From contig CAYXUU010000029.1 in the NCBI GenBank assembly GCA_964468645.1, positions 14,084 through 78,083 of the forward strand: a stretch of 64,000 nucleotides of DNA, given 5' to 3'. How positions within the stretch are numbered: the stretch's first letter is position 1; each line of letters starts with the position of its first letter. The position numbers were made by a program, and so were the translations under genes. This DNA is from an uncultured Bacteroidales bacterium (GTDB lineage: Bacteria > Bacteroidota > Bacteroidia > Bacteroidales > JAIOZK01). Shown one piece after another: positions 2,058 to 16,944 of this stretch. A model generated the notes under the pieces. That model did no database searches, had not been told where the DNA came from, and saw only the letters and a program-made list of their open reading frames with translations.

Positions 2058-3626
2058 ATGAATCTCAATAAGATAAAGTTTTTAAGTATAATCAGTTCAT
2101 TACTATTGGTATGGTTTTTTTCGATATACCCCATATTGGTGCTCTATGCACACAATGCTGGTGAAGTGTTGCTTCATCAGGTGGTAATACCATTGATTTC
2201 GAGCCTGATATTCTATACGGCTATCTATGGTTTGTGGTGGTTAATATTAAAAAATAATTTTAGAGCTGGTTTTGCAACCATCTTTGCAATATTGATTTTC
2301 TGGAATTATGATTTAATTTTTACAGGGCTTTTAAAAGTAATTGATTTGAGGCACTGGCATTTAATGCCATTATTATTAGTTATCTATTCGTTCCTGGTTT
2401 ATATGCTCATAAGAATCAAACATCAAAAATTGCTTCATAATTTAAATACTATTTTCCTGGTGCCAATAACCATACTCATCATGATTAATGTATTTAATAT
2501 ACTGCGTGTTGAGATTGTGAAACCTGATCCCAAAGTAAACAAAAAAAAGTTAGATCAGTTAAATCAGGATGATAATCCTAACAGGGATTATCCTGACATA
2601 TTTCTAATTATTCTGGATGAATATGCCAGTTTCAGCACAATCTATGAGGAATGGGATTATGATAATAGTGGTTTTGCTCAATACTTAAGGGAAAGCGGCT
2701 TTTTTATTGCGGGAAACAGCGATTGGAGATATTATAGAACAATCTGGAATATCTGCAGTCTGCTGAACCTGGATTATGTAACCGGACCGGTCGAACAAAA
2801 TGAATTCCTGGAATACTGCTGTGGCAATCCCTCGGTGCTGGATAATGCAACAAGGGAAATGTTACAGAAAGTAAATAAAAAAGATCTGTTTGAAAGGATT
2901 GCCAGCAACAAGCTTACTGGTTATTTGAAAGATTATGGATATAATATCATAGTTTTGGAAGCATTCAAATCAATGACCTTCAATTATACCGATTATTTCA
3001 TGGGTTTTGATGACTTCAGGAGAAACGATCTGGTATCTGAATTTACTGATCCATTTTCCCAGGAACTGATAAGAGGCTCTATCCTGTATCCCTTCGTAGA
3101 TCTATCAATTGATTACCGGATTAATAAAATAAAGTATAACGGAACAAAATCCATTTTAAATTATTTAAAATCAAAGGCGGCCGACCTGGATAGCCCCAAA
3201 TTTGTTCTTGCACATATACTCTGTCCACACCACCCTCTTGTATTTGACCTTGAGGGGAATTTCGTACCTGATGCGCCAAATCCAAGAGATGAGCGTATCG
3301 GAAAGCTAATGCCTGAAAATAACGATGTTAATCACAGATATCTGGATCAGTATATTTATATGACCAACCAGATTAAAGACATTATTAATTCTATTATGAT
3401 ACAATCAACAGAGAAACCTGTTATCATGATTCAGAGTGATCATTCCCCAAGGCCACAGGCGTTTTATTTGAAAGATAAAACCAATGCGTTTAGTGTATTG
3501 AATGTGGTATATTTTCCGGATGGGGATTATAAATATATGTATGATAGTATTGCTCCCATTAATATAATGAGAATATTATTAAATAAATACTTCGATACAA
3601 AATACGAATTATTGGATGACAGATAG
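2058..3626 (+). CDS. membrane-anchored alkaline-phosphatase-superfamily enzyme (sulfatase/LtaS/EptA-like phosphotransferase), paralog A
   Basis: Roughly five N-terminal TM helices are followed by a soluble domain carrying LDEYASF, HILCPHHPLVFD (compare the H-x-x-G-S-H-G-P-x-Y motif of EptA/LtaS) and MIQSDHSPRP (compare SDHG). Its stop codon is within 1 nt of the ATG of the next gene (positions 3623-3628 by my count). Confidence 0.7.
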   Translation: MNLNKIKFLSIISSLLLVWFFSIYPILVLYAHNAGEVLLHQVVIPLISSLIFYTAIYGLWWLILKNNFRAGFATIFAILIFWNYDLIFTGLLKVIDLRHWHLMPLLLVIYSFLVYMLIRIKHQKLLHNLNTIFLVPITILIMINVFNILRVEIVKPDPKVNKKKLDQLNQDDNPNRDYPDIFLIILDEYASFSTIYEEWDYDNSGFAQYLRESGFFIAGNSDWRYYRTIWNICSLLNLDYVTGPVEQNEFLEYCCGNPSVLDNATREMLQKVNKKDLFERIASNKLTGYLKDYGYNIIVLEAFKSMTFNYTDYFMGFDDFRRNDLVSEFTDPFSQELIRGSILYPFVDLSIDYRINKIKYNGTKSILNYLKSKAADLDSPKFVLAHILCPHHPLVFDLEGNFVPDAPNPRDERIGKLMPENNDVNHRYLDQYIYMTNQIKDIINSIMIQSTEKPVIMIQSDHSPRPQAFYLKDKTNAFSVLNVVYFPDGDYKYMYDSIAPINIMRILLNKYFDTKYELLDDR

Positions 3627-4556
3627 ATGAAGGCAAACAAAATGCTTATTGTTTTTCTTTGTATATTTATATTGTTTGCTACGTATCTGGTTTTTGCAGA
3701 TTATATCTTTCAGGTCTTAATTAAAATGAGCAGAGAAGCAAGATCTGTTAAAAGAGAACTGCCTCAAGAAACTAACAATATAAAATTTCATATTGATAGG
3801 GTAAAGAATGTGATATTAGGATGGAAAGATGCTTTGACAATCCGGGGGTGGGTCTTCAAAGAAAATGTTAAAGAGACGCATAGAGAGGTATATCTGGTGC
3901 TAAAGTCAAAAACAAGCACGCTTATTTTCGATATAGAAGATGATAATAGACAAAGGCGGGATATTTCGTATAACTATAATATTGCCGACGAAATAGATAA
4001 TCATGGATTTGAGTTGAGAATACCCGTTTATAGATTAAGAAAAGGCCCATATAAAATTGGGTTTATAATAGAAGACAAAACAGGGACATATTATACCCTT
4101 TCTGATACAAAATTGAGGATACCTAGAAACACAATTCAGACAAAGCAAATAAGTCAGAGATCATTATCAGAATTCATATCAAAACAGGTAAGCCTGGATT
4201 TAAAAGAACCTACAAAAGAAGTCGATTATCATTTCGACGAAGTCAATATTTCGGAGAAACACCTTATTGTCAGCGGGTGGGGATTTATTAAAGGCATGGA
4301 TACAGGTTCACTTAAAACGTATATTTCATTAAAGAAAGACGAAAATGTAATTGTATATAATGTTCAGGTGAATAAGAGGAAGGATATAACCAAGCGGTTT
4401 AAGGATTTCGGCAGAAACCTGAATTTATCAGGTTTCTCATCCCAAATCCCCATTGAGAATTTGGATAGCGGAAATTATCAATTAGGATTATACTTAATTA
4501 AGGGTGATCACATAGGAATTATTTATGCGGACCAACATGTAAATGTTAGCAAATAA
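3627..4556 (+). CDS. membrane-anchored protein with two internal ~140-aa repeats, unknown function
   Basis: A single N-terminal TM helix (MLIVFLCIFILFATYLVFA) is followed by duplicated modules (HIDRVKNVILGWKDALTIRGWVF... and HFDEVNISEKHLIVSGWGFIKG...). It is translationally coupled to the upstream gene. Confidence 0.55.
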   Translation: MKANKMLIVFLCIFILFATYLVFADYIFQVLIKMSREARSVKRELPQETNNIKFHIDRVKNVILGWKDALTIRGWVFKENVKETHREVYLVLKSKTSTLIFDIEDDNRQRRDISYNYNIADEIDNHGFELRIPVYRLRKGPYKIGFIIEDKTGTYYTLSDTKLRIPRNTIQTKQISQRSLSEFISKQVSLDLKEPTKEVDYHFDEVNISEKHLIVSGWGFIKGMDTGSLKTYISLKKDENVIVYNVQVNKRKDITKRFKDFGRNLNLSGFSSQIPIENLDSGNYQLGLYLIKGDHIGIIYADQHVNVSK

Positions 4557-4655: not shown

Positions 4656-6131
4656 ATGGGTAAAAGTAAACTTTTAAAAAAGTTAGTTCCAATTATCACT
4701 GTATGGCTATTTGCAATTTATCCCGTTTTGGCTTTATATGCACACAATGCTGAAGAGCTTGTTTTACAGCAAGCTACACTACCCTTAGGCTTTTCCCTGA
4801 TATTCTCAACAATTCTATTTGGTCTTTGGGGAATCATACTTAAGAACAATTATAAGGCAAGTTTGGTGACTATTATATTGTTATTGATTTTTTGGTATTA
4901 CGCATTAATTTACAGGGGTATTACGCAATTTAACACTTTTAAGCACTGGCATCTAATACCGTTATTATTTTTAATGTATTTCATTTTTGTCTATTTTATA
5001 GCAAAGGCCAGGCGACAAAAGGTGCTAAAAAAATTAAACACAATCTTATTAGCACCAATTACGCTATTGATAGTTTTTAATGTTATAACCATCTTACCAA
5101 TAGAATTTAAAAAGATTGAAACCTTAAGAAATAATGGTAAGACTAATATCACGGCATCTGAAATAAATGCTGCTAAAGATCATCCAGATATTTATCTGAT
5201 CGTATTAGATGAATATGCCAGCTTTAAGTCAATAAATGAAGAGTGGGATTATACCAACAGTGAGTTTGAAGAATTTCTAAGAGAAAAAGGCTTTTATGTT
5301 GCTGAAGATAGTGAAACCCGGTTTAATAAGACTAAAAAAGCACTGACCTCTTTAATGAATCTCAAATATATTGATGAAAGTTATACAGAGTTAGAATTAA
5401 ATCAGAGATATCATAACAATCATATATTTGATTTATTTGATAAAATGGGGTATGGCGTTGTTTTTCTCGATGGACGTGGTATTGCTGGGCAAACAGCAAT
5501 TTCAGAAAACATTTTACATGTCTATTATACAGGCATAGATTCTACAAACAGTCCCGTGATTAATGAATTCAGCGATCTGGTTTTTAAACAATCCATGTTA
5601 AAGCCCCTCCTCAAATACCTGAGGGATGAAAATACAAATCTTTACTATAATTTGAATAATTATATCTTCAATTACATAAGTAATTTCCCATCAATAGTAA
5701 ATGAAAATGAGCAGCCAACTTTCCTGTATGCTTATATAATGTGTCCGCATTTGCCATATGTTTTTGACCGGAAGGGTAATTTTACTGAGAATCCTACAAA
5801 CTATTGGGAGTATAAATCATTAGATAAAGATCTTCTTAAAAAATTATATTTAGAGCAATATATCCATGTTACAACAAGGATGACAGATATTATAAATGAA
5901 ATATTAGAAACTTCGGAAAATGAACCTATTATAATTTTGCTATCGGATCATGGCCCAAGAGGAAACTCAGGTATGAAAAATTCAAATCAGGCTTTCAGGG
6001 TTATGAATGCGATATATTTTCCCGACCGCAACTATCATAATCTATATTCAAATATTGCACCGGTTAACACGTTGAGAGCATTGTTAAACAAGTACTTTGG
6101 CGGAAACTTTAAAATGTTGGAGGATAGATAG
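4656..6131 (+). CDS. membrane-anchored alkaline-phosphatase-superfamily enzyme (sulfatase/LtaS/EptA-like), paralog B
   Basis: Its N-terminus is clearly homologous to that of the 2058..3626 protein (YAHNAEELVLQQ versus YAHNAGEVLLHQ, and HWHLIPLL versus HWHLMPLL). It shares the same catalytic-domain motifs: LDEYASF, YIMCPHLPYVFD and LLSDHGPRGN. Confidence 0.7.
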   Translation: MGKSKLLKKLVPIITVWLFAIYPVLALYAHNAEELVLQQATLPLGFSLIFSTILFGLWGIILKNNYKASLVTIILLLIFWYYALIYRGITQFNTFKHWHLIPLLFLMYFIFVYFIAKARRQKVLKKLNTILLAPITLLIVFNVITILPIEFKKIETLRNNGKTNITASEINAAKDHPDIYLIVLDEYASFKSINEEWDYTNSEFEEFLREKGFYVAEDSETRFNKTKKALTSLMNLKYIDESYTELELNQRYHNNHIFDLFDKMGYGVVFLDGRGIAGQTAISENILHVYYTGIDSTNSPVINEFSDLVFKQSMLKPLLKYLRDENTNLYYNLNNYIFNYISNFPSIVNENEQPTFLYAYIMCPHLPYVFDRKGNFTENPTNYWEYKSLDKDLLKKLYLEQYIHVTTRMTDIINEILETSENEPIIILLSDHGPRGNSGMKNSNQAFRVMNAIYFPDRNYHNLYSNIAPVNTLRALLNKYFGGNFKMLEDR

Positions 6132-6142
6132 TCTAAATTAAT

Positions 6143-7594
6143 TTGGAAGTACCGAAAACAATTATAAATTTTTATACTAATTTGCGAACAATCATTAAAT
6201 CAGAAACTGGAAATTCAATGATTAATAATAAAGTCTTAGAAAGTTCTTTCCGTGACCCAAGCGGATTTCTCTTTGATGAAGACGGGATACTATTGCGTCA
6301 AGTAAATAAATGTTATCAAAAAGACTATGACTTTTTAATGAATTCTTCACTTTATGACAAATTAACAAGTGAAGGATTGTTGATTACTCATAAGGAGCAT
6401 GATAGCCATAAAGGTTTCAAACCAGATTGTTACAAAATTATCGAACCTGACCTGATTAATTTTATATCCTACCCATATGAGTGGTCGTTCAGCCAATTAA
6501 AAGATGCGGCAATAACAACACTGATGATTCAAAAAACAGCCTTACAACATGGAATGATATTAAAAGACAGCAGTGCCTACAATATTCAGTTTCAAAACGG
6601 AAGACCCATATTTATTGATACGCTCTCATTTGAAATATACCATGATGGCCAACCATGGGGTGCTTACAGGCAATTCTGCCAGCATTTTTTAGCCCCACTC
6701 GCATTGATGAGCCATACCGATATCCGGTTAAACCAGATGATGAAAATTTATCTGGATGGCATTCCTCTTGATCTGGCCAGTAAATTATTACCCTTTAAAA
6801 CGAAAATCAGGATCTCGTTATTAATGCATCTTCATTTGCATACAGGTGCACAAAAAAAGTACCGGAACAAAGGATCTGCTTCGAAAAACACGAAAATTTC
6901 CCGTTCTAATTTGTTTGCATTGATACAAAGTTTATTATCTGCTGTAAGACGCCTGAGATTGAAGGGCCAGAATACTGAATGGGGCGATTATTATTCTTTT
7001 ACCAATTACGCTGATCAATCATTTACACATAAAAAAGAAATTATTACCGGATTTATCAAAGCTATAAATCCTGAAACGATCTGGGACCTGGGTGCAAACA
7101 CAGGCGAGTTCACTCAAATTGGCAGTCAATATGGAATACAATGCGTCGCATTTGATATTGATCCGTTAGCTGTTGATTCCCATTATACCTATATCAGAAA
7201 CCAGCAAATTGAAAATATTTTACCGTTGGTCATGGATTTAACAAATCCGAGTCCATCAATAGGTTGGAACAACAAAGAAAGAATGGGATTTTTGCAGAGG
7301 CCTTTACCCGATACCGTTCTTGCACTTGCATTGATCCATCATCTGGCCATTTCAAACAATCTGCCATTGAACAAGATTGCCAGCTTCCTGAGTGAATTGA
7401 GCGATAATCTGATCATTGAATTTGTACCAAAGACAGATTCACAGGTGCAAAAACTACTCGAGTCACGAAAAGATATCTTTATAAATTACAATGAAGAAAC
7501 ATTTGTCCGGGATTTCGAATTGTATTTTAAGATCAGGGCAAAAGAAACGATTGCTGAATCTAACAGGGTAATTTATTGGATGACTAGAAAATAA
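6143..7594 (+). CDS. two-domain protein: an N-terminal protein-kinase-like (PKL) fold candidate fused to a C-terminal class I SAM-dependent methyltransferase of FkbM type
   Basis: The C-terminal region has the SAM-binding motif I, WDLGANTGEFTQIGSQYGIQCVAFDIDP (GANxG is typical of FkbM-family methyltransferases). The N-terminal region has a catalytic-loop-like segment MILKDSSAYNIQFQNGRPIFIDTLSF, where D-x4-N is followed about 12 residues later by I-D-T (DFG-like), spacing that matches kinase-like folds. The kinase assignment is an inference. Confidence 0.55.
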   Translation: MEVPKTIINFYTNLRTIIKSETGNSMINNKVLESSFRDPSGFLFDEDGILLRQVNKCYQKDYDFLMNSSLYDKLTSEGLLITHKEHDSHKGFKPDCYKIIEPDLINFISYPYEWSFSQLKDAAITTLMIQKTALQHGMILKDSSAYNIQFQNGRPIFIDTLSFEIYHDGQPWGAYRQFCQHFLAPLALMSHTDIRLNQMMKIYLDGIPLDLASKLLPFKTKIRISLLMHLHLHTGAQKKYRNKGSASKNTKISRSNLFALIQSLLSAVRRLRLKGQNTEWGDYYSFTNYADQSFTHKKEIITGFIKAINPETIWDLGANTGEFTQIGSQYGIQCVAFDIDPLAVDSHYTYIRNQQIENILPLVMDLTNPSPSIGWNNKERMGFLQRPLPDTVLALALIHHLAISNNLPLNKIASFLSELSDNLIIEFVPKTDSQVQKLLESRKDIFINYNEETFVRDFELYFKIRAKETIAESNRVIYWMTRK

Positions 7595-7693: not shown

Positions 7694-7924
7694 ATGAATA
7701 TACTCCACGCTATTATTTCGGTAACATTTCTTTCTTCATTACCTGCCATTTTACTCGCCTATATTGACCCGGGAACCGGCAGCATAATAATTCAGGCAAT
7801 TATTGCGACAGTTGTTGGCGCTGGCGTTGCCCTGGCGCTATTCAGAGACAAAGTATTCAGGTTATTCGGGATAAAAAGGCCGGATAAACCCGATGATGAA
7901 TCTGAGCATATTGAAGACAAATAG
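7694..7924 (+). CDS. small hydrophobic protein (76 aa), unknown function
   Basis: ORF has an ATG start, two predicted TM segments and an acidic C-terminal tail. There is no homology signal I can name. Confidence 0.35.
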   Translation: MNILHAIISVTFLSSLPAILLAYIDPGTGSIIIQAIIATVVGAGVALALFRDKVFRLFGIKRPDKPDDESEHIEDK

Positions 7925-7950: not shown

Positions 7951-9864
7951 GTGATAATATTGCCCACAATTAAGAACACAACACTTACCATACAAACCTT
8001 CTTTTTGTGTTTCAGCTTATCCGCCCAAGTTAAAACTGATAAACCTATCGTTCAGGGAAATGATTATGACCAGCTAGCATTGCGATCTTCATCCACCTCA
8101 AATTACGACATCAAATATCACCGGCTTGAATTTGAAGTTGACCCACCTGTTATTTACATCGAAGGAAATGTTACCACTTATTTTGTTCCCAAAAACGATT
8201 TAAGCTCGATGGTTTTTGATTTCAGAAATAATATGACAGTGGATTCAGCAATATATCATGGAAGTATTATAACGCACACCTTCATTTCAACCGTTGAATT
8301 AAAAGTCGGTTTTCCTTCAACAATACCTGCAGGCACAATCGATTCTGTTACTATATATTATCAGGGAGCCCCCAGCTCAGGTGGTTTTGGTGCTTTCGAA
8401 ACGGATAATACAACATGCTCAAGCCAGGATACCGTTATGTGGACACTTTCGGAGCCCTATGGGGCAAAATGCTGGTGGCCCTGCAAAGAAACATTAAATG
8501 ATAAGATCGATTCGGTGGACATGTTTGTTACAGCCCCGATGAAATACCACATTGCCGGAAATGGCCTTTTGATTAAGCGTGATACCTCAGGAAACAAGAT
8601 CACCGACCACTGGAAACATACCTATCCCATCCCTGCCTACCTGATCGCATTTGCTGCTTCCGAATATTCAATATACAGGGATACCATCGCTTTATATAAT
8701 GGAGGTCATCTCGAAGTGCTAAACTATGTTTTCCCATGCGATTCAGCCTATGCCCATACACAAACGATCAAGCTGGATACGGTAATGAATTTTTTTATTG
8801 GGAAATTTGGTCCTTATCCTTTTGAAGATGAAAAATACGGACATGCCCAGTGCAGGTTTGGTGGTGGTATGGAGCATACAACCATGACATTTATGGGAGG
8901 GTGGTGGTATTCTGTCCTGATCCATGAACTGGCACACCAATGGTTTGGGGATAAGATCACTTGCGGCAGCTGGCACGATATCTGGCTGAATGAAGGCTTT
9001 GCCACCTACCTGGAGGGATTGACCTGTGAGCAGCGGATACAAACCACCTCATTTTATAACTGGTTGAGCGGCAAACGTACTAATATATTGAGTAGTAATT
9101 ACGGTTCCGTTTACTGTAATGATACCACCAGTGTCAGCCGGATTTTCAATGGCAGATTATCATACAACAAAGGGGCATATCTTTTGCATATGCTGCGTTG
9201 GATTATGGGGGATACAGATTTTTTCACTGCATTACATAATTATATTAATGATCCTGCGCTAGCGTACGATTATGCCCTCACCGATGATCTTAAGGCTCAT
9301 CTGGAAACAACCGCTGATACAAGCTTTACGGAGTTTCTGGATGATTGGTATTACGGCCAGGGATGGCCCGATTATGATATTACATGGTCGGTGGATGTTG
9401 CCTGCAATAAGCTCAGGGTAAACATCCGGCAATCACATTCCACTGGTGGAAATACTTTCTTTGAAATGCCTGTGCCTGTAAAATTCAGTAATGGATCTCA
9501 GGATACAACTTTAATATTTAATCAAAACAACCCGGTGGATACCCTGTTTTTCAGAACGGTAAATTTCACACCTGATGATGCAGCATTTGATCCTGACCTG
9601 TGGCTTTGTGCAAAAAGTACCGTTATTGAAGAAAGTTTAGCTGTGAGAACGATACATTGGACGGGTGGTTTTGATAATGACTGGCTAACAGCTTCGAACT
9701 GGGATTGCGGGGTACCAACTTTAAATGACGATGTTGTAATCCCGGCAGGCAAGCCAGATTGTATTATTTCTACAGGCGATGTTGCTTACTGTAAGAATCT
9801 GTATATTGAAGCAGGGGGTAATCTTATTATCCAGCCTGATGCGACATTACATGTGGAAAATTAG
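7951..9864 (+). CDS. M1-family zinc aminopeptidase (aminopeptidase N-like), secreted
   Basis: The gluzincin signature HELAHQWFGD plus WLNEGFATY (the third zinc ligand, Glu) is present, with an N-terminal signal peptide. Length is 637 aa. Confidence 0.85.
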   Translation: MIILPTIKNTTLTIQTFFLCFSLSAQVKTDKPIVQGNDYDQLALRSSSTSNYDIKYHRLEFEVDPPVIYIEGNVTTYFVPKNDLSSMVFDFRNNMTVDSAIYHGSIITHTFISTVELKVGFPSTIPAGTIDSVTIYYQGAPSSGGFGAFETDNTTCSSQDTVMWTLSEPYGAKCWWPCKETLNDKIDSVDMFVTAPMKYHIAGNGLLIKRDTSGNKITDHWKHTYPIPAYLIAFAASEYSIYRDTIALYNGGHLEVLNYVFPCDSAYAHTQTIKLDTVMNFFIGKFGPYPFEDEKYGHAQCRFGGGMEHTTMTFMGGWWYSVLIHELAHQWFGDKITCGSWHDIWLNEGFATYLEGLTCEQRIQTTSFYNWLSGKRTNILSSNYGSVYCNDTTSVSRIFNGRLSYNKGAYLLHMLRWIMGDTDFFTALHNYINDPALAYDYALTDDLKAHLETTADTSFTEFLDDWYYGQGWPDYDITWSVDVACNKLRVNIRQSHSTGGNTFFEMPVPVKFSNGSQDTTLIFNQNNPVDTLFFRTVNFTPDDAAFDPDLWLCAKSTVIEESLAVRTIHWTGGFDNDWLTASNWDCGVPTLNDDVVIPAGKPDCIISTGDVAYCKNLYIEAGGNLIIQPDATLHVEN

Positions 9865-11128: not shown

Positions 11129-13291
11129 ATGAATTTTGAGAACAAATTTTTTGCAAACCATTGCAGTAGCAGGATAACAGTAGCTAGATCAAAGCAGGTC
11201 TTATTCCTGTTAATGTCTTTTTTTAGCCTGATTTATCATGTTAGTGCCCAAAATTCTGAATGGCTGATTTATACATGTGGTAAGACAGTTAATGCATTGG
11301 CTGATGAAGGCAATGTAATATGGATAGGTACCTCCGGTGGTTTAGTGAAGCTTGACAAAACCACGGGTATCAAAACATTTTTTAATACTTCAAACTCGGG
11401 TTTACCAAGCATTGAAGTATATTCAATTGCCATCGACCATTATGGGATTAAGTGGATTGGAACTTGGCGAGGATTATCGAGATTTGATGGAAAAAAATGG
11501 ACCACATACAAACCTTCAAATTCCGGATTACCTGCAAGTACGGTTTTTGATATAGTCATTGACGAAAATGGTTCAAAGTGGATAGCTACCTGGGGAGGTG
11601 GAATGGCAAAACTTGACGGATCATATTGGACTGTTTTTAACCGGATAAACTCAGGAATACCTGATGATGATGTTCGTTCAATTACCATTGCTGAAAACGG
11701 GGAGATGTGGATCGGTACATGGGATGGACTGGCAAAATATGATGGAGTTAACTGGACAATTTTTAACACGCTTAATTCAGGATTACCCTCAGATTATGTC
11801 ATGACGGTGGCGATAGATGAAAACGGATCGAAATGGATAGGAACCGAGCACCATGGAATAGCACTTTTTGACGATACAACCTGGATAATCTACAATATGG
11901 CAAATTCTGAATTGCCTTCTAATTGGATTACCTCAATAATAATTGATGAATATAATACAAAATGGATTGGGACCTGGGGAGGTCTGTCAAAATTCGATGG
12001 CACTAACTGGACAATATATAATGTACAAAACTCAGGTTTGCCACATCGTCGTGTTTATTCTATAACCATTGATAGCAACGAACTGAAGTGGATTGGAACC
12101 GGTTTTGGATTGGCAAAATTCAATGAAACTGAATGGGAAACATACAATACATCAAATTCGGGTTTGCCGGATAATTATATCGAGTCAATAGCTTTTGATG
12201 AATCTGGCGCAAAATGGATTGGAACATGGGCTGGAGTGGCACAGTTTAATGGATCTGATTGGACAACTTACAATATGATTAATTCACATATTCCTGACGA
12301 AAATATACGATCAGTGGTTATTGATGAGAACGATTCAAAGTGGATTGGCACATTGGATGGATTGGCAAAACTTGAAGGTACAGATTGGACTGTATTTAAC
12401 ACATCTAACTCAGGGCTACCTTCTAATCATATCACTTCGATAGCTTTGGATAGAAATCAATGCAAATGGATTGGAACTGCCCATGACGGATTAGCAAAAT
12501 TCAAAGGAACGGACTGGATCATATACAACACTTCCAATTCGGAACTGCCTGATGATGATATCAATTCATTAGCAGTTGAAGATAACCTTTTACTCTGGAT
12601 TGGAACAGATGAAGGATTGGCTAAATTTGATGGATCGGAATGGACAATATACAACACTGCAAATTCGGGATTACCTGATAATAAAATCTTTGCGATAATC
12701 ATTGAGGAAAATGGATCAAAGTGGATCGGTACCTGGGGAGGAATTACCCAATTTAACGGAATTGACTGGAACACTTTCAATACATTGAATTCGGAACTAC
12801 CAGATAACCTTGTCTTTTCATTAGCCATTGATGGAAACAATTCTAAATGGATTGGCACACGTGGGGGACTTGCAAAATATGACGGATCAAACTGGACAAT
12901 ATTCACCACATCAAATTCATATTTACCAGGTAACGGCATAAAATCTTTGGCAATTGATGAATATGAAACAAAGTGGATTGGTACTTTTGGTACTGGATTC
13001 GCTGTTTATAATGAAAATGGCATTCCCACAAAAGTTTTGGATAAACCACTAACTGATAATCAACTAACGGTATTCCCTAATCCATGTAATAATTATCTAA
13101 ACATTAAACGATTCATCAATAGTGCTGCATGCCTAATTCAAATGTTCGATATGCATGGAAATCTTGTAAAGATTGAAAGTATCACCAATGATTGCAAAAT
13201 AATAGACGTGAGTGATTTAGTCAGCGGAATATATATAATCGTTGTTTATGATGATACGAGGATTTTAACGGAGAAGTTCATTAAGCACTAA
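11129..13291 (+). CDS. secreted beta-propeller protein built from about 12 Reg_prop (two-component-regulator-propeller) repeats, with a T9SS type-A C-terminal sorting domain and no kinase or transmembrane module
   Basis: A repeat unit recurs about every 47 aa: KWIGTxxGLAKFDGxxWTxYNTxNSGLPxNxIxSIAIDENGSKWIGTW. The C-terminal roughly 80 aa (LTVFPNPCNNYLNIKR...VSDLVSGIYIIVVYDDTRILTEKFIKH) match the Por/T9SS sorting-domain pattern. Confidence 0.8.
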   Translation: MNFENKFFANHCSSRITVARSKQVLFLLMSFFSLIYHVSAQNSEWLIYTCGKTVNALADEGNVIWIGTSGGLVKLDKTTGIKTFFNTSNSGLPSIEVYSIAIDHYGIKWIGTWRGLSRFDGKKWTTYKPSNSGLPASTVFDIVIDENGSKWIATWGGGMAKLDGSYWTVFNRINSGIPDDDVRSITIAENGEMWIGTWDGLAKYDGVNWTIFNTLNSGLPSDYVMTVAIDENGSKWIGTEHHGIALFDDTTWIIYNMANSELPSNWITSIIIDEYNTKWIGTWGGLSKFDGTNWTIYNVQNSGLPHRRVYSITIDSNELKWIGTGFGLAKFNETEWETYNTSNSGLPDNYIESIAFDESGAKWIGTWAGVAQFNGSDWTTYNMINSHIPDENIRSVVIDENDSKWIGTLDGLAKLEGTDWTVFNTSNSGLPSNHITSIALDRNQCKWIGTAHDGLAKFKGTDWIIYNTSNSELPDDDINSLAVEDNLLLWIGTDEGLAKFDGSEWTIYNTANSGLPDNKIFAIIIEENGSKWIGTWGGITQFNGIDWNTFNTLNSELPDNLVFSLAIDGNNSKWIGTRGGLAKYDGSNWTIFTTSNSYLPGNGIKSLAIDEYETKWIGTFGTGFAVYNENGIPTKVLDKPLTDNQLTVFPNPCNNYLNIKRFINSAACLIQMFDMHGNLVKIESITNDCKIIDVSDLVSGIYIIVVYDDTRILTEKFIKH

Positions 13292-14592: not shown

Positions 14593-16944
14593 ATGGGGAA
14601 CCATCTAATACTTATTATTATCACTCTAATAACAACAACCTTATCAGGTTTTGCACAAAACGATGGAAAACTCGAAGGAATTGCATATAACATGGAAACC
14701 GGTTTGCCGGTAAACAATGTTGACGTAGTTGTTTCACCAGGGGGATCGGGTACAGTTACAGACGACAATGGAAACTTTTCAATTCCGCAACTAGAACCTG
14801 GAATATACCGGGTATTCTTTACCCATATCGGATTTCAGGATCTTGAAAAAAGTGTAAGGATCACCGCTAATCAAACCAGTAGTGTCAACATTAATCTTAT
14901 CCCAAAAACAGAACAGCTTAAGGAGGTTGTTATTTCTGAACAGGCCGAAGATATCATTAAGGCCCCATACATTATTGAAAGCATACACGAACTTGAGATA
15001 CAGCAACACCCGGCAAGGGATATCGGTGATTACCTGAGAAATACACCTAACCTTTCCGGTATCAGGAAGGGGGGCGCCGGTATTGATCCGGTAGTCAGGG
15101 GATTCAAATTTAAACAGCTTAATGTAATTGTTAACGGTGCAATCAAAATTGAAGGAGGATGTCCAAACCGTATGGATCCTGCTGTTTCCCATATCGATAT
15201 TGATGATATTAAGAAAATTGAAGTTTACAAAGGCCCGTTTGCACTGAGGTACGGCCCGAATTTCGGCGGTATTATTAATCTTAGCACCAACCATCCTTTC
15301 ACTGAAAAAGAATTCAGTACAAAGATTGCGGCAGCAACGGGTTTTGAAAGTAACTGGAATGGGAATAAAGAACGGCTTGGGATTACAGCCGGAAATAACA
15401 GGGTTTACCTTAAGTTGTCAGGGAATCATAAAAAATATGGTGATTATAAAGCGGGCAATGATGTCACGATGAATGCGGCCTTTACGAAGTATAATTATAC
15501 AGCCTTACTCGGTGTTTCCCCGGCCGATAATCACCATCTGACGATTTCTTTCGACCGGTCGTACGGAAGGAATTTAAGTTTTCCTGCCCTACCCATGGAC
15601 GAACGCTCCGACGATACACAGATATCTTCATTCGAATATAATGGAATACTTTCCGGAAAGTACATAAAAAGTATTAAAGCTAAAATGTATAACTCCGATG
15701 TCCACCATATTATGGACAATAAAGAAAGGCCATTCTCAGATACTGTAGTGGCCGTTTCTGATATCAAAGCAAGAAATACCGGCGGAAGGGCTGAAACACA
15801 GATCGGGATAAAAGGCCATGAAATTTTCATCGGGGTAGATTATGAGAATATTTATAAGGACGGACAGCGTACCAAGAGTTTTATTATGCAGCCTAACCTG
15901 CCCGTTAAGATTGAAAGTTTATGGAATAATGCCAGGATTAATAACACCGGATTTTTTACATCCTGGAATAAAAACACCGATAAGCTTGACTTGTTAGCTG
16001 CCGCACGGATCGATCTGAACAATGCAAGCAGTGGCATCCTCCAATCATTGAACATGAAAGGGGAAACAATGTATTCTAATAACAACACCGATTCGAAATA
16101 TACAAACCTTAGCATCAGTGCAGGGGTATTGGCCCACCTGCTTCATAATCTTGATATTGGTGTATCAATAGGAAGAGGGGTAAGAAGCCCTGACATGACA
16201 GAGCGCTTTATTATCCTGTTGCCTGTTGGATACGACAGGTTTGATTATCTGGGTAATCCCCAGCTTAAACCTGAGAATAATCATGAGATAGATATCAAGG
16301 TAGAATATCTGACAAAAAGAGCCTGCGTATTTAACATCAGCGGCTTCTTTTCTTATGTAACCGATTATATTACAGGTAAAGAAGTGCCGCCATCCGAAGT
16401 CAAGCCACAAACAAAAGATGTCCTGGGGGTAAAGGAATTTATCAATATTGACCATGCCTATTTGTATGGATTCGAATTTGTTTATCAATCAGGTTTATTC
16501 GGCAATTTCAGCTTATATGCAGATGTAGCTGCTACATATGGTATCAATCCATCGGCTGTTAAGTATTTAATTGAGAATGGTCAGGTGGTTGGAGAGGAGA
16601 TCGTAAAAAATGATCCGCTTCCGGAAATTCCACCGCTGGAATCAAATATTGCTTTTACATATCGATTATTCAATAACAGGCTAATTCCGGAAATTTCAAT
16701 CAGGATGGTAGCCGCTCAGAAGAAACTATCGGAATCATACTATGAAGTAGAAACCCCGGGAATTGCCACTTTGAATTTTTCCCTGCAATACAACTTCAAC
16801 GATTATCTTAAACTTAACGGAGGTATTAACAATATCTTTAATAAAGGATATTACGAACATTTGAACAGGATTATTATCGGAAGTAATACACCATATTATG
16901 AGCCTGGAAGAATCTTTTATGTAAACCTTATTTTTAACATCTGA
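14593..16944 (+). CDS. TonB-dependent receptor (N-terminal carboxypeptidase-regulatory-like domain, plug, 22-strand barrel). A candidate MbnT-like transporter given its neighbours.
   Basis: It has a signal peptide, a CarbopepD_reg-like segment (GIAYNMETGLPVNNVDVVVSPGG...GNFSI), a plug motif region (DPVVRGF...NVIVNGAIKIEGG) and a long beta-barrel rich in alternating aromatic residues. Length is 783 aa. Confidence 0.85.
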   Translation: MGNHLILIIITLITTTLSGFAQNDGKLEGIAYNMETGLPVNNVDVVVSPGGSGTVTDDNGNFSIPQLEPGIYRVFFTHIGFQDLEKSVRITANQTSSVNINLIPKTEQLKEVVISEQAEDIIKAPYIIESIHELEIQQHPARDIGDYLRNTPNLSGIRKGGAGIDPVVRGFKFKQLNVIVNGAIKIEGGCPNRMDPAVSHIDIDDIKKIEVYKGPFALRYGPNFGGIINLSTNHPFTEKEFSTKIAAATGFESNWNGNKERLGITAGNNRVYLKLSGNHKKYGDYKAGNDVTMNAAFTKYNYTALLGVSPADNHHLTISFDRSYGRNLSFPALPMDERSDDTQISSFEYNGILSGKYIKSIKAKMYNSDVHHIMDNKERPFSDTVVAVSDIKARNTGGRAETQIGIKGHEIFIGVDYENIYKDGQRTKSFIMQPNLPVKIESLWNNARINNTGFFTSWNKNTDKLDLLAAARIDLNNASSGILQSLNMKGETMYSNNNTDSKYTNLSISAGVLAHLLHNLDIGVSIGRGVRSPDMTERFIILLPVGYDRFDYLGNPQLKPENNHEIDIKVEYLTKRACVFNISGFFSYVTDYITGKEVPPSEVKPQTKDVLGVKEFINIDHAYLYGFEFVYQSGLFGNFSLYADVAATYGINPSAVKYLIENGQVVGEEIVKNDPLPEIPPLESNIAFTYRLFNNRLIPEISIRMVAAQKKLSESYYEVETPGIATLNFSLQYNFNDYLKLNGGINNIFNKGYYEHLNRIIIGSNTPYYEPGRIFYVNLIFNI

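What the first reader, a model, noticed from the sequence alone, without database searches (positions are those of the whole stretch)
6143..7594. Kinase-like N-terminal domain fused to an FkbM-type methyltransferase
The segment MILKDSSAYNIQFQNGRPIFIDTLSF has D-x4-N followed 12 residues later by I-D-T. This is the spacing of the catalytic loop and DFG-equivalent in protein-kinase-like folds such as aminoglycoside and Kdo kinases. The C-terminal 190 aa has a clear SAM-binding GANTG motif. A kinase-methyltransferase fusion acting on a sugar or small molecule would be unusual.
Basis: inference. Interest (0 to 1): 0.55.

Follow-up and report, generated by a model that had tools for sequence, protein, structure and literature searches.

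The report
NoeA-family kinase-like methyltransferase fusion gene
The gene encodes a real fusion of an atypical protein-kinase-like domain and a SAM methyltransferase, but it belongs to the widespread NoeA/Lani_1194 family that was described by bioinformatics in 2022 and whose chemistry is still unknown.

The parts
6218..7594 (+). Coding sequence of the NoeA/Lani_1194-family protein (458 aa plus stop).
   Evidence: a 100% identical 458-aa database protein, and homologues start near this Met; 35% identity to S. meliloti NoeA over 98% of the length; 54% identity to the Lani_1194 kinase domain.
6218..6967 (+). Protein-kinase-like domain (residues 1-250).
6245..6265 (+). SFRDPSG (residues 10-16), the conserved loop before the first long beta strand. 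It is the candidate equivalent of the Gly-rich loop.
   Evidence: S10, F11, D13 and G16 are at least 90% conserved. The equivalence to the Gly-rich loop is inferred, as in PMC9758233.
6296..6298 (+). R27, an invariant Arg in the strand at residues 24-30. It is the counterpart of the ATP-binding Lys (PKA K72).
   Evidence: Invariant in 139 sequences. It aligns with R38 of Lani_1194, which PMC9758233 names as the K72 equivalent.
6566..6583 (+). D117-S-S-A-Y-N122, the catalytic-loop equivalent (PKA D166...N171).
   Evidence: N122 is invariant and D117 at least 90% conserved. The segment lies between strand 113-115 and strand 123-126, after the long helix 91-110.
6614..6622 (+). I133-D134-T135, the DFG-equivalent metal-binding Asp.
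   Evidence: D134 is invariant. It lies just after strand 129-132.
7013..7591 (+). Class I (Rossmann-fold) SAM-dependent methyltransferase domain (residues 266-458).
7082..7111 (+). WDLGANTGEF, SAM-binding motif I (D290, G292, N294 and G296 conserved).
   Evidence: It aligns with VLDLGCAQGFF of WbdD.
7337..7342 (+). H374-H375, a conserved His pair.
   Evidence: H375 is invariant and H374 at least 90% conserved. The pair aligns with WbdD H132/H133, which bind the phosphate and are needed for phosphate methylation (PMC3482155). The pair is not specific to phosphate methyltransferases.
4656..6131 (+). NoeB-like partner, copy 2. It has about five N-terminal membrane helices followed by an alkaline-phosphatase/sulfatase-fold domain, and it ends 86 bp before the ATG at 6218.
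   Evidence: Hydropathy. Pfam Sulfatase E 7e-4, and 20 of 33 family members match Sulfatase. The family profile matches PDB sulfatases at 1e-7. Weak match to NoeB, E 8e-6. Adjacency is conserved.
2058..3626 (+). NoeB-like partner, copy 1 (paralogue, 37% identical to copy 2).
   Evidence: It is 35% identical to the corresponding gene of locus L003.
3627..4556 (+). 309-aa protein with one N-terminal membrane helix and an internal duplication. It is an occasional accessory gene of the cassette, and its function is unknown.
   Evidence: It is 26% identical to the gene at the same position in L003. Relatives are also in L039, L054 and L059.
7694..7924 (+). 76-aa small membrane protein with the motif YIDPGTGS...Q, one membrane helix and a basic tail. 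It is the third conserved member of the module and is probably the Lani_1193 counterpart.
   Evidence: A small ORF with Y-[LI]-D-P-G-[TS]-G-S-x3-Q flanks the NoeA-like gene in about 72 of 84 loci, including S. meliloti noeA. No Pfam or NCBIfam family matches.

Best explanation
The gene (6218-7594) encodes a cytoplasmic, two-domain member of the NoeA/Lani_1194 family. The N-terminal domain is a divergent protein-kinase-like domain. It keeps the catalytic Asp, the Asn and the metal-binding Asp, but has an invariant Arg in place of the ATP-binding Lys and no recognisable alpha-C Glu. It is rigidly joined to a C-terminal class I SAM methyltransferase. The gene belongs to a conserved three-part module. 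The other two parts are a five-helix membrane protein of the alkaline-phosphatase/sulfatase fold (NoeB-like, two copies here) and a small membrane protein with a YxDPG(T/S)GS motif. The most likely working model is a two-step tailoring enzyme. The kinase-like domain would use ATP to phosphorylate a hydroxyl on an envelope or secreted glycoconjugate, a lipid-linked precursor or another membrane-proximal substrate. The methyltransferase would then methylate the product, possibly the new phosphate itself as WbdD does. The membrane partners would act on the outer face. My estimates are: family membership and fold, shown, about 0.97; both domains catalytically active, inferred, about 0.6; phosphorylate then methylate the phosphate, inferred, about 0.3. 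The substrate is unknown.
Confidence: 0.55

Rival explanations
1. The N-terminal domain is a pseudokinase. It would be a substrate-binding, scaffolding or membrane-recruitment module that no longer transfers phosphate, leaving the methyltransferase as the only catalyst.
Against: N122 and D134 are invariant and D117 is nearly so across phyla and down to 35% identity. Pseudokinases usually lose at least one of these residues. PMC9758233 classifies the family as having a preserved active site.
Confidence: 0.2
2. The kinase-like domain carries out a different nucleotide-dependent reaction. One option is AMPylation or another transfer, as in SelO and SidJ. Another is phosphorylation of a small head-group alcohol such as ethanolamine, which the methyltransferase then N-methylates. 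That would make a phospho-form donor that the alkaline-phosphatase-fold partner attaches to surface molecules or to the small YxDPGxGS protein.
Confidence: 0.15
3. This is the first reader's reading taken literally: a novel fusion of a small-molecule kinase (aminoglycoside or Kdo kinase type) with an FkbM-type methyltransferase.
For: The motif I sequence GANTG resembles the GANxG of FkbM-family enzymes (my own knowledge). The D-x4-N...D spacing fits kinase-like folds.
Against: No FkbM profile matches even at E<=1. The nearest structures are WbdD, MePCE and similar class I enzymes. The fusion is a described family with thousands of members. There is no H-x-D Brenner motif, since the sequence reads L-K-D.
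Confidence: 0.04
4. The genes form an anti-phage defence module analogous to Pgl/BREX, which also combines a kinase, a methyltransferase and an alkaline-phosphatase-fold protein.
For: The combination of a kinase-like domain, a methyltransferase and an alkaline-phosphatase-fold protein superficially recalls PglW, PglX and PglZ (my own knowledge). There is a weak PADLOC match to mad2 over the methyltransferase region only (E 1e-4).
Against: The PADLOC match covers only the generic methyltransferase core, and the partner proteins match nothing in PADLOC. The partner is a five-helix membrane sulfatase-fold protein, not PglZ. The methyltransferase resembles small-molecule and phosphate methyltransferases, not DNA methyltransferases. 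The neighbouring genes are for polysaccharide synthesis or nodulation.
Confidence: 0.03

Closest known systems
Lani_1194 / NoeA family (Legionella anisa Lani_1194, KTC72970.1; Sinorhizobium meliloti NoeA). It was predicted to be a kinase-methyltransferase fusion in 'Pan-kinome of Legionella', Sci Rep 2022, PMC9758233.
   Same: The architecture and length are the same (458 aa against 471 and 476). The protein is 54% identical to the Lani_1194 kinase domain and 35% identical to NoeA. It has the same Arg in place of the beta-3 Lys, the same conserved D/N/D in atypical motifs, and the same class I methyltransferase. It has the same neighbour of the alkaline-phosphatase fold (NoeB/Lani_1195), and probably the same small neighbour (Lani_1193).
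   Different: The gene order differs. Here the alkaline-phosphatase-fold gene is upstream and duplicated, a 309-aa accessory gene is inserted, and the small gene lies downstream. In most phyla the order is small gene, then noeA, then noeB. The host is a Bacteroidota-like genome, and there is no nodL or O-acetylase neighbour.
[quoted passage not shown]
   Different: The domain order is reversed: WbdD runs methyltransferase, kinase, coiled coil. There is no coiled coil here. WbdD's kinase domain resembles canonical eukaryotic protein kinases, whereas this one has an Arg where the ATP-binding Lys would be and shows no detectable sequence similarity to it. WbdD sits in an O-antigen cluster that depends on an ABC transporter. 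PMC9758233 treats related kinase-methyltransferase fusions as separate, remotely related families.
Lcin_0519 family (the second Legionella kinase-methyltransferase family in PMC9758233).
   Same: It is also a kinase-like domain fused to a methyltransferase and is predicted to modify the cell envelope.
   Different: It has a different domain order and inter-domain geometry, a coiled coil, and neighbours encoding the Wzm/Wzt ABC transporter and a glycosyltransferase. I had no sequence to compare, so this was not tested here.
FkbM-family methyltransferases (Pfam PF05050, TIGR01444).
   Same: They share the class I fold and a GANxG-like motif I.
   Different: No profile match appears at E<=1. The nearest structures belong to other class I subfamilies.
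Membrane-anchored alkaline-phosphatase-superfamily transferases (EptA/MCR-1, LtaS, YejM). These are the closest known relatives of the partner proteins at 2058-3626 and 4656-6131.
   Same: The partners have about five N-terminal membrane helices followed by a sulfatase-fold domain. An Asp near the start of the catalytic domain and a D-H-G motif are conserved.
   Different: The similarity is weak (the family profile matches EptA at E 0.41 and soluble sulfatases at 1e-7). The nucleophile was not identified, and the substrate is unknown.

Membership tests
NoeA / Lani_1194 family | End-to-end sequence homology to NoeA and to the Lani_1194 kinase domain | tested here: met
   35% identity over 98% of the length to NoeA: tblastn E 7e-72 and BLASTP E 7e-92. 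54% identity, gap-free over 174 aa, to Lani_1194 residues 15-192, E 2e-64.
NoeA / Lani_1194 family | Arg in place of the ATP-binding Lys (R38 of Lani_1194), with conserved equivalents of PKA D166, N171 and D184 | tested here: met
   R27 aligns with R38. R27, N122 and D134 are invariant and D117 is at least 90% conserved in 139 sequences.
NoeA / Lani_1194 family | C-terminal class I SAM methyltransferase domain on the same polypeptide | tested here: met
NoeA / Lani_1194 family | Adjacent gene for an alkaline-phosphatase-fold protein (NoeB/Lani_1195) | tested here: met
   The ORF at 4656-6131 ends 86 bp upstream of the start. It matches Pfam Sulfatase weakly and NoeB at E 8e-6. Its family profile matches sulfatases. 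The adjacency is seen in 49 of 84 loci.
NoeA / Lani_1194 family | Kinase and methyltransferase activity | not testable with these tools
   I found no biochemical data for any member.
Protein-kinase-like superfamily (fold level) | Bilobal kinase fold | tested here: met
Protein-kinase-like superfamily (fold level) | Beta-3 Lys paired with an alpha-C Glu | tested here: not met
   The conserved residue is Arg (R27), and no conserved Glu lies in the helices after that strand. PMC9758233 reports the same for the family.
Protein-kinase-like superfamily (fold level) | Catalytic-loop Asp and Asn and the DFG Asp at the canonical positions | tested here: inconclusive
   The order helix 91-110, strand 113-115, D117...N122, strand 123-126, strand 129-132, D134 matches the PKA order alpha-E, beta-6, D166...N171, beta-7, beta-8, D184 (PKA positions from my own knowledge). 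No residue-level superposition was available.
FkbM-family methyltransferases | Match to the family profile (Pfam PF05050 Methyltransf_21, or TIGR01444) | tested here: not met
   Neither profile is listed at E<=1 in Pfam or NCBIfam.
WbdD family | Order methyltransferase, kinase, coiled coil, with a canonical eukaryotic-type kinase domain | tested here: not met
   The order here is kinase-like domain then methyltransferase, with no coiled coil. The N-domain profile finds no WbdD or other kinase by sequence. Only the methyltransferase domains match.
Class I SAM-dependent methyltransferases | Rossmann-type fold with a Gly-rich motif I and an acidic residue after strand 2 | tested here: met

The most novel reading that the evidence does not exclude
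The small YxDPG(T/S)GS membrane protein, the NoeA-like kinase-methyltransferase and the NoeB-like membrane phosphotransferase together form a self-contained, horizontally mobile surface phospho-form modification system. It is found from Bacteroidota and Chloroflexota to archaea. In this reading, the cytoplasmic enzyme makes a methylated phospho-donor or methyl-phosphate mark. The alkaline-phosphatase-fold enzyme then transfers or processes it at the outer face, possibly onto the small protein's invariant Ser/Thr motif. This would be a type of envelope chemistry not yet described.
Probability: 0.15. Interest if true: 0.65.

Novelty: new member of a known kind. Interest (0 to 1): 0.33.

Why it matters
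It is not a discovery, however. The fusion is the NoeA/Lani_1194 family, already predicted in 2022 to be an atypical kinase joined to a methyltransferase. What remains open is the chemistry. The family has thousands of members across bacteria and archaea, and members from different phyla are often more than 50% identical. It includes a host-range nodulation gene (noeA) and putative Legionella effectors. No substrate or product is known for any of them. The tight three-gene module documented here gives a concrete target for biochemistry and for knock-out lipid and glycan analysis.

Tried and rejected
(1) FkbM assignment. Pfam and NCBIfam scans at E<=1 list no FkbM model, so I rejected it.

(2) Sequence-level link of the N-domain to kinases. 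A profile of 46 N-domains against all PDB sequences gave nothing relevant (best hit E 2.1, ribosomal protein L15). Pfam on the isolated N-domain also gave nothing. The relationship is visible only by structure.

(3) The motif as evidence on its own. D-x4-N-x(10-13)-D occurs in 8 of 38 long ORFs of the window, so it is not evidence by itself.

(4) Exact look-up of the 458-aa protein's contigs. It is not on record.

(5) Defence-system reading. PADLOC gives only a weak match over the generic methyltransferase core and nothing for the partner proteins, so I rejected it.

(6) Residue-level superposition on PKA. Model coordinates are not exposed to the script environment, so the D/N/D equivalence rests on secondary-structure register and on the published analysis.

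(7) Lani_1193 sequence. It is not in the paper's supplements, so the identity of the small YxDPGxGS protein with Lani_1193 is inferred. The motif is not mentioned in the searchable literature.

(8) Biochemical characterisation of NoeA or Lani_1194. Searches found none.

Full report
**1. The observation**

The window has an ORF at 6143..7594 (+) of 483 codons starting at a TTG. It contains the quoted segment MILKDSSAYNIQFQNGRPIFIDTLSF and the motif WDLGANTGEF.

The upstream 25 codons are not matched by any homologue. A database protein 100% identical to the rest is 458 aa, and close relatives are 455-470 aa and start near the same Met. The ATG is at 6218. I therefore take the gene as 6218..7594, and I number residues from that Met: R27, D117, N122, D134, motif I 289-298, H374/H375.

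The D-x4-N-x(10-13)-D pattern is not remarkable on its own. It occurs in 8 of 38 ORFs of at least 200 aa in this window.

**2. The family**

Curated profile libraries say almost nothing. Pfam and NCBIfam give only sub-threshold generic methyltransferase matches for the C-terminal part, none for the N-terminal 265 residues, and no FkbM model.

The family is nevertheless very large.
- An exhaustive HMMER search of 50%-identity representatives found 6081 clusters at E<=0.001 and 1831 at E<=1e-30. Almost all of the best 150 are 430-500 aa and align over nearly the whole length.
- In an alignment of 139 members down to 41% identity, R27, N122, D134, W147, Y150, K272, H375, E401 and R450 are invariant.
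- In the same alignment, D13, G16, E88, W89, K116, D117, D290, G292, N294, G296, D313, D315, D340, E354, R355, R361 and H374 are at least 90% conserved.

**3. The fold**

AlphaFold2 with this alignment gives a very confident two-domain model (pLDDT 95.7, pTM 0.94). A separate model of residues 1-268 has pLDDT 91.9.

*N-terminal domain*
- Foldseek independently returns only kinases (E from 1.7e-5, probability 1.00, TM about 0.4).
- So the domain has a kinase fold but is a distant member. A sequence profile of the domain finds no kinase in PDB.
- The order of secondary structure is helix 91-110, strand 113-115, D117...N122, strand 123-126, strand 129-132, D134.
- That is the order alpha-E, beta-6, catalytic loop, beta-7, beta-8, DFG of PKA (my own knowledge of PKA). 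This is an inference from register, because I could not inspect a superposition.
- The conserved basic residue of the N-lobe is Arg, not Lys, and no conserved alpha-C Glu is evident.

*C-terminal domain*
- The family profile matches WbdD's methyltransferase domain by sequence at E about 0.002-0.003.

**4. It is a known family**

[quoted passage not shown] That paper defines the novel kinase family Lani_1194, with these features:
- an atypical kinase domain with R38 in place of PKA K72;
- no identifiable ion-pair Glu;
- conserved D166/N171/D184 equivalents in atypical motifs;
- fusion to a class I methyltransferase in 94% of about two thousand homologues;
- Flavobacteriales as the second most numerous order among its homologues;
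- S. meliloti NoeA as a homologue;
- neighbours Lani_1193 (a small hypothetical protein, in 65% of 816 neighbourhoods) and Lani_1195/NoeB (alkaline-phosphatase fold, in 38%).

I tested membership directly.
- tblastn against plasmids finds NoeA on pSymA at 35% identity over 98% of the protein (E 7e-72; BLASTP E 7e-92). The annotated operon there is nodL, a 71-aa hypothetical, noeA and noeB.
- The paper's supplement gives the Lani_1194 kinase-domain sequence. The window protein is 54% identical to it over 174 residues without a gap (E 2e-64).

[quoted passage not shown] I found no biochemical study of any member.

**5. The surroundings**

*Alkaline-phosphatase-fold partners*
- Upstream on the same strand lie two paralogous ORFs, 2058-3626 and 4656-6131, which are 37% identical.
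- Each has about five N-terminal membrane helices and then a sulfatase-fold domain.
- Aligned with 31 neighbours from other loci, this family matches Pfam Sulfatase in 20 of 33 members. Its profile matches PDB sulfatases at 1e-7 and EptA weakly, at E 0.41.
- The ORF at 4656-6131 matches NoeB weakly (E 8e-6), and NoeB itself matches Sulfatase (E 2e-10).

*Accessory gene*
- Between the two paralogues is a 309-aa protein with one membrane helix and an internal repeat.

*Census of the partner gene*
- I collected 80 related loci from GTDB genomes. With three loci fetched earlier and the window, that makes 84 loci, of which two are the same region.
- An alkaline-phosphatase-fold gene lies within 300 bp of the NoeA-like gene in 49 loci and within 3 kb in 58.
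- Among the 56 loci with at least 3 kb on both sides, 40 have one within 3 kb.
- It is usually directly downstream on the same strand, and the coordinates often indicate a 4-bp overlap.
- In Bacteroidales (the window, L002/L004 and L003) it is upstream.
- An Anaerolineaceae genome (L054) has the same order as the window: partner, 309-aa-like gene, partner, then the kinase-methyltransferase gene.

*The small gene*
- Looking for the third published neighbour, I found a 76-aa ORF at 7694-7924 (+), 100 bp after the stop codon. Its sequence is ...LLAYIDPGTGSIIIQAII..., followed by one membrane helix and a basic tail.
- Small ORFs with the same motif flank the gene in L003, in S. meliloti (the 71-aa hypothetical upstream of noeA) and in L002.
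- Across the 84 loci, a small ORF with Y-[LI]-D-P-G-[TS]-G-S-x3-Q lies next to the gene in about 72. It is nearly always directly upstream and often overlaps the start.
- Y, D, P, both G, the second S and Q are invariant in the 69 copies aligned by the motif.
- Four of the twelve loci that lack it have the NoeA-like gene at the very edge of the contig.
- The motif is often preceded by a signal-peptide-like A-x-A.
- No Pfam or NCBIfam family covers it, and the motif is not discussed in the searchable literature.
- It is probably Lani_1193, but I could not obtain that sequence.

**6. How it most likely works**

*Shown*
- The protein is a soluble two-domain member of the family, with no membrane segment.
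- It has a kinase fold and a class I methyltransferase fold, and candidate catalytic residues are conserved in both.
- It is genetically locked to two membrane proteins.

*Inferred*
- It is a two-step tailoring enzyme acting at the cytoplasmic face of the membrane.
- The best analogy is WbdD. WbdD phosphorylates the terminal mannose of a lipid-linked O-antigen and then methylates that phosphate. Its H132, H133 and R203 form the phosphate site (PMC3482155).
- The family's H374/H375 align with that His pair.
- Several phosphate or phosphonate methyltransferases are among the closest structures.
- The methyltransferase domain has many invariant basic residues.

*Why these points are not diagnostic*
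- The His pair also occurs in RebM-type enzymes.
- The Arg-for-Lys change leaves room for a pseudokinase or for a non-canonical nucleotide reaction.

I therefore put about 0.6 on both domains being active and about 0.3 on methylation of the phosphate. The roles of the membrane partner and of the small protein (acceptor, adaptor or cofactor) are open.

**7. Verdict**

The gene is a new member of a described but biochemically uncharacterised family. The most useful additions here are two. One is the direct match to Lani_1194 and NoeA. The other is the near-universal small YxDPGxGS gene, which completes a three-gene module.

Noticed in passing
window 7694-7924 (+): A 76-aa ORF encodes a small membrane protein with the invariant motif Y-[LI]-D-P-G-[TS]-G-S-x3-Q, one membrane helix and a basic tail. 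A similar small ORF flanks the NoeA-like gene in about 72 of 84 loci from many phyla, including S. meliloti. It has no Pfam or NCBIfam family, and the searchable literature does not mention the motif.
   Followed up: partly
window 2058-3626 and 4656-6131 (+): These are tandem paralogues, 37% identical. Each is a membrane protein with about five helices and a sulfatase-fold domain (NoeB-like). Several other loci also carry two or three copies (for example L037, L056, L058).
   Followed up: partly
window 3627-4556 (+): A 309-aa protein with one N-terminal membrane helix and two internal repeats, and no Pfam match. It recurs at the same position in the cassette in L003 (26% identity), L054 and L059, and downstream of the partner gene in L039. 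Its function is unknown.
   Followed up: partly
loci L004-L083: NoeA-like proteins from Chloroflexota, Omnitrophota, Aminicenantes, Planctomycetota, Chlamydiota, candidate phyla radiation bacteria and archaea (Nitrosopumilaceae L015, Methanomicrobia L042) are 48-61% identical to the window protein. This suggests frequent horizontal transfer of the cassette and strong constraint on its sequence.
   Followed up: no
L054 2207-8371 (Anaerolineaceae MAG): The gene order matches the window (partner, 309-aa-like gene, partner, NoeA-like gene), although the host belongs to a different phylum.
   Followed up: no
L003 1-17389 (GCA_942493145.1): The cassette sits inside a polysaccharide-biosynthesis cluster. 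The cluster includes glycosyltransferases, an epimerase, MBOAT- and AlgX-type proteins and a large multi-methyltransferase protein.
   Followed up: no
window 7951-9864 (+), 11129-13291 (+), 14593-16944 (+): The downstream genes are typical of Bacteroidota. They encode an M1 aminopeptidase, a beta-propeller protein with a type IX secretion C-terminal sorting domain (PorZ-like matches), and a TonB-dependent receptor. They appear unrelated to the cassette.
   Followed up: no
window 6218-7591, residues 241-383: There is a weak PADLOC match to mad2 (E 1e-4) over the methyltransferase core only. I judged it to be generic methyltransferase similarity.
   Followed up: yes
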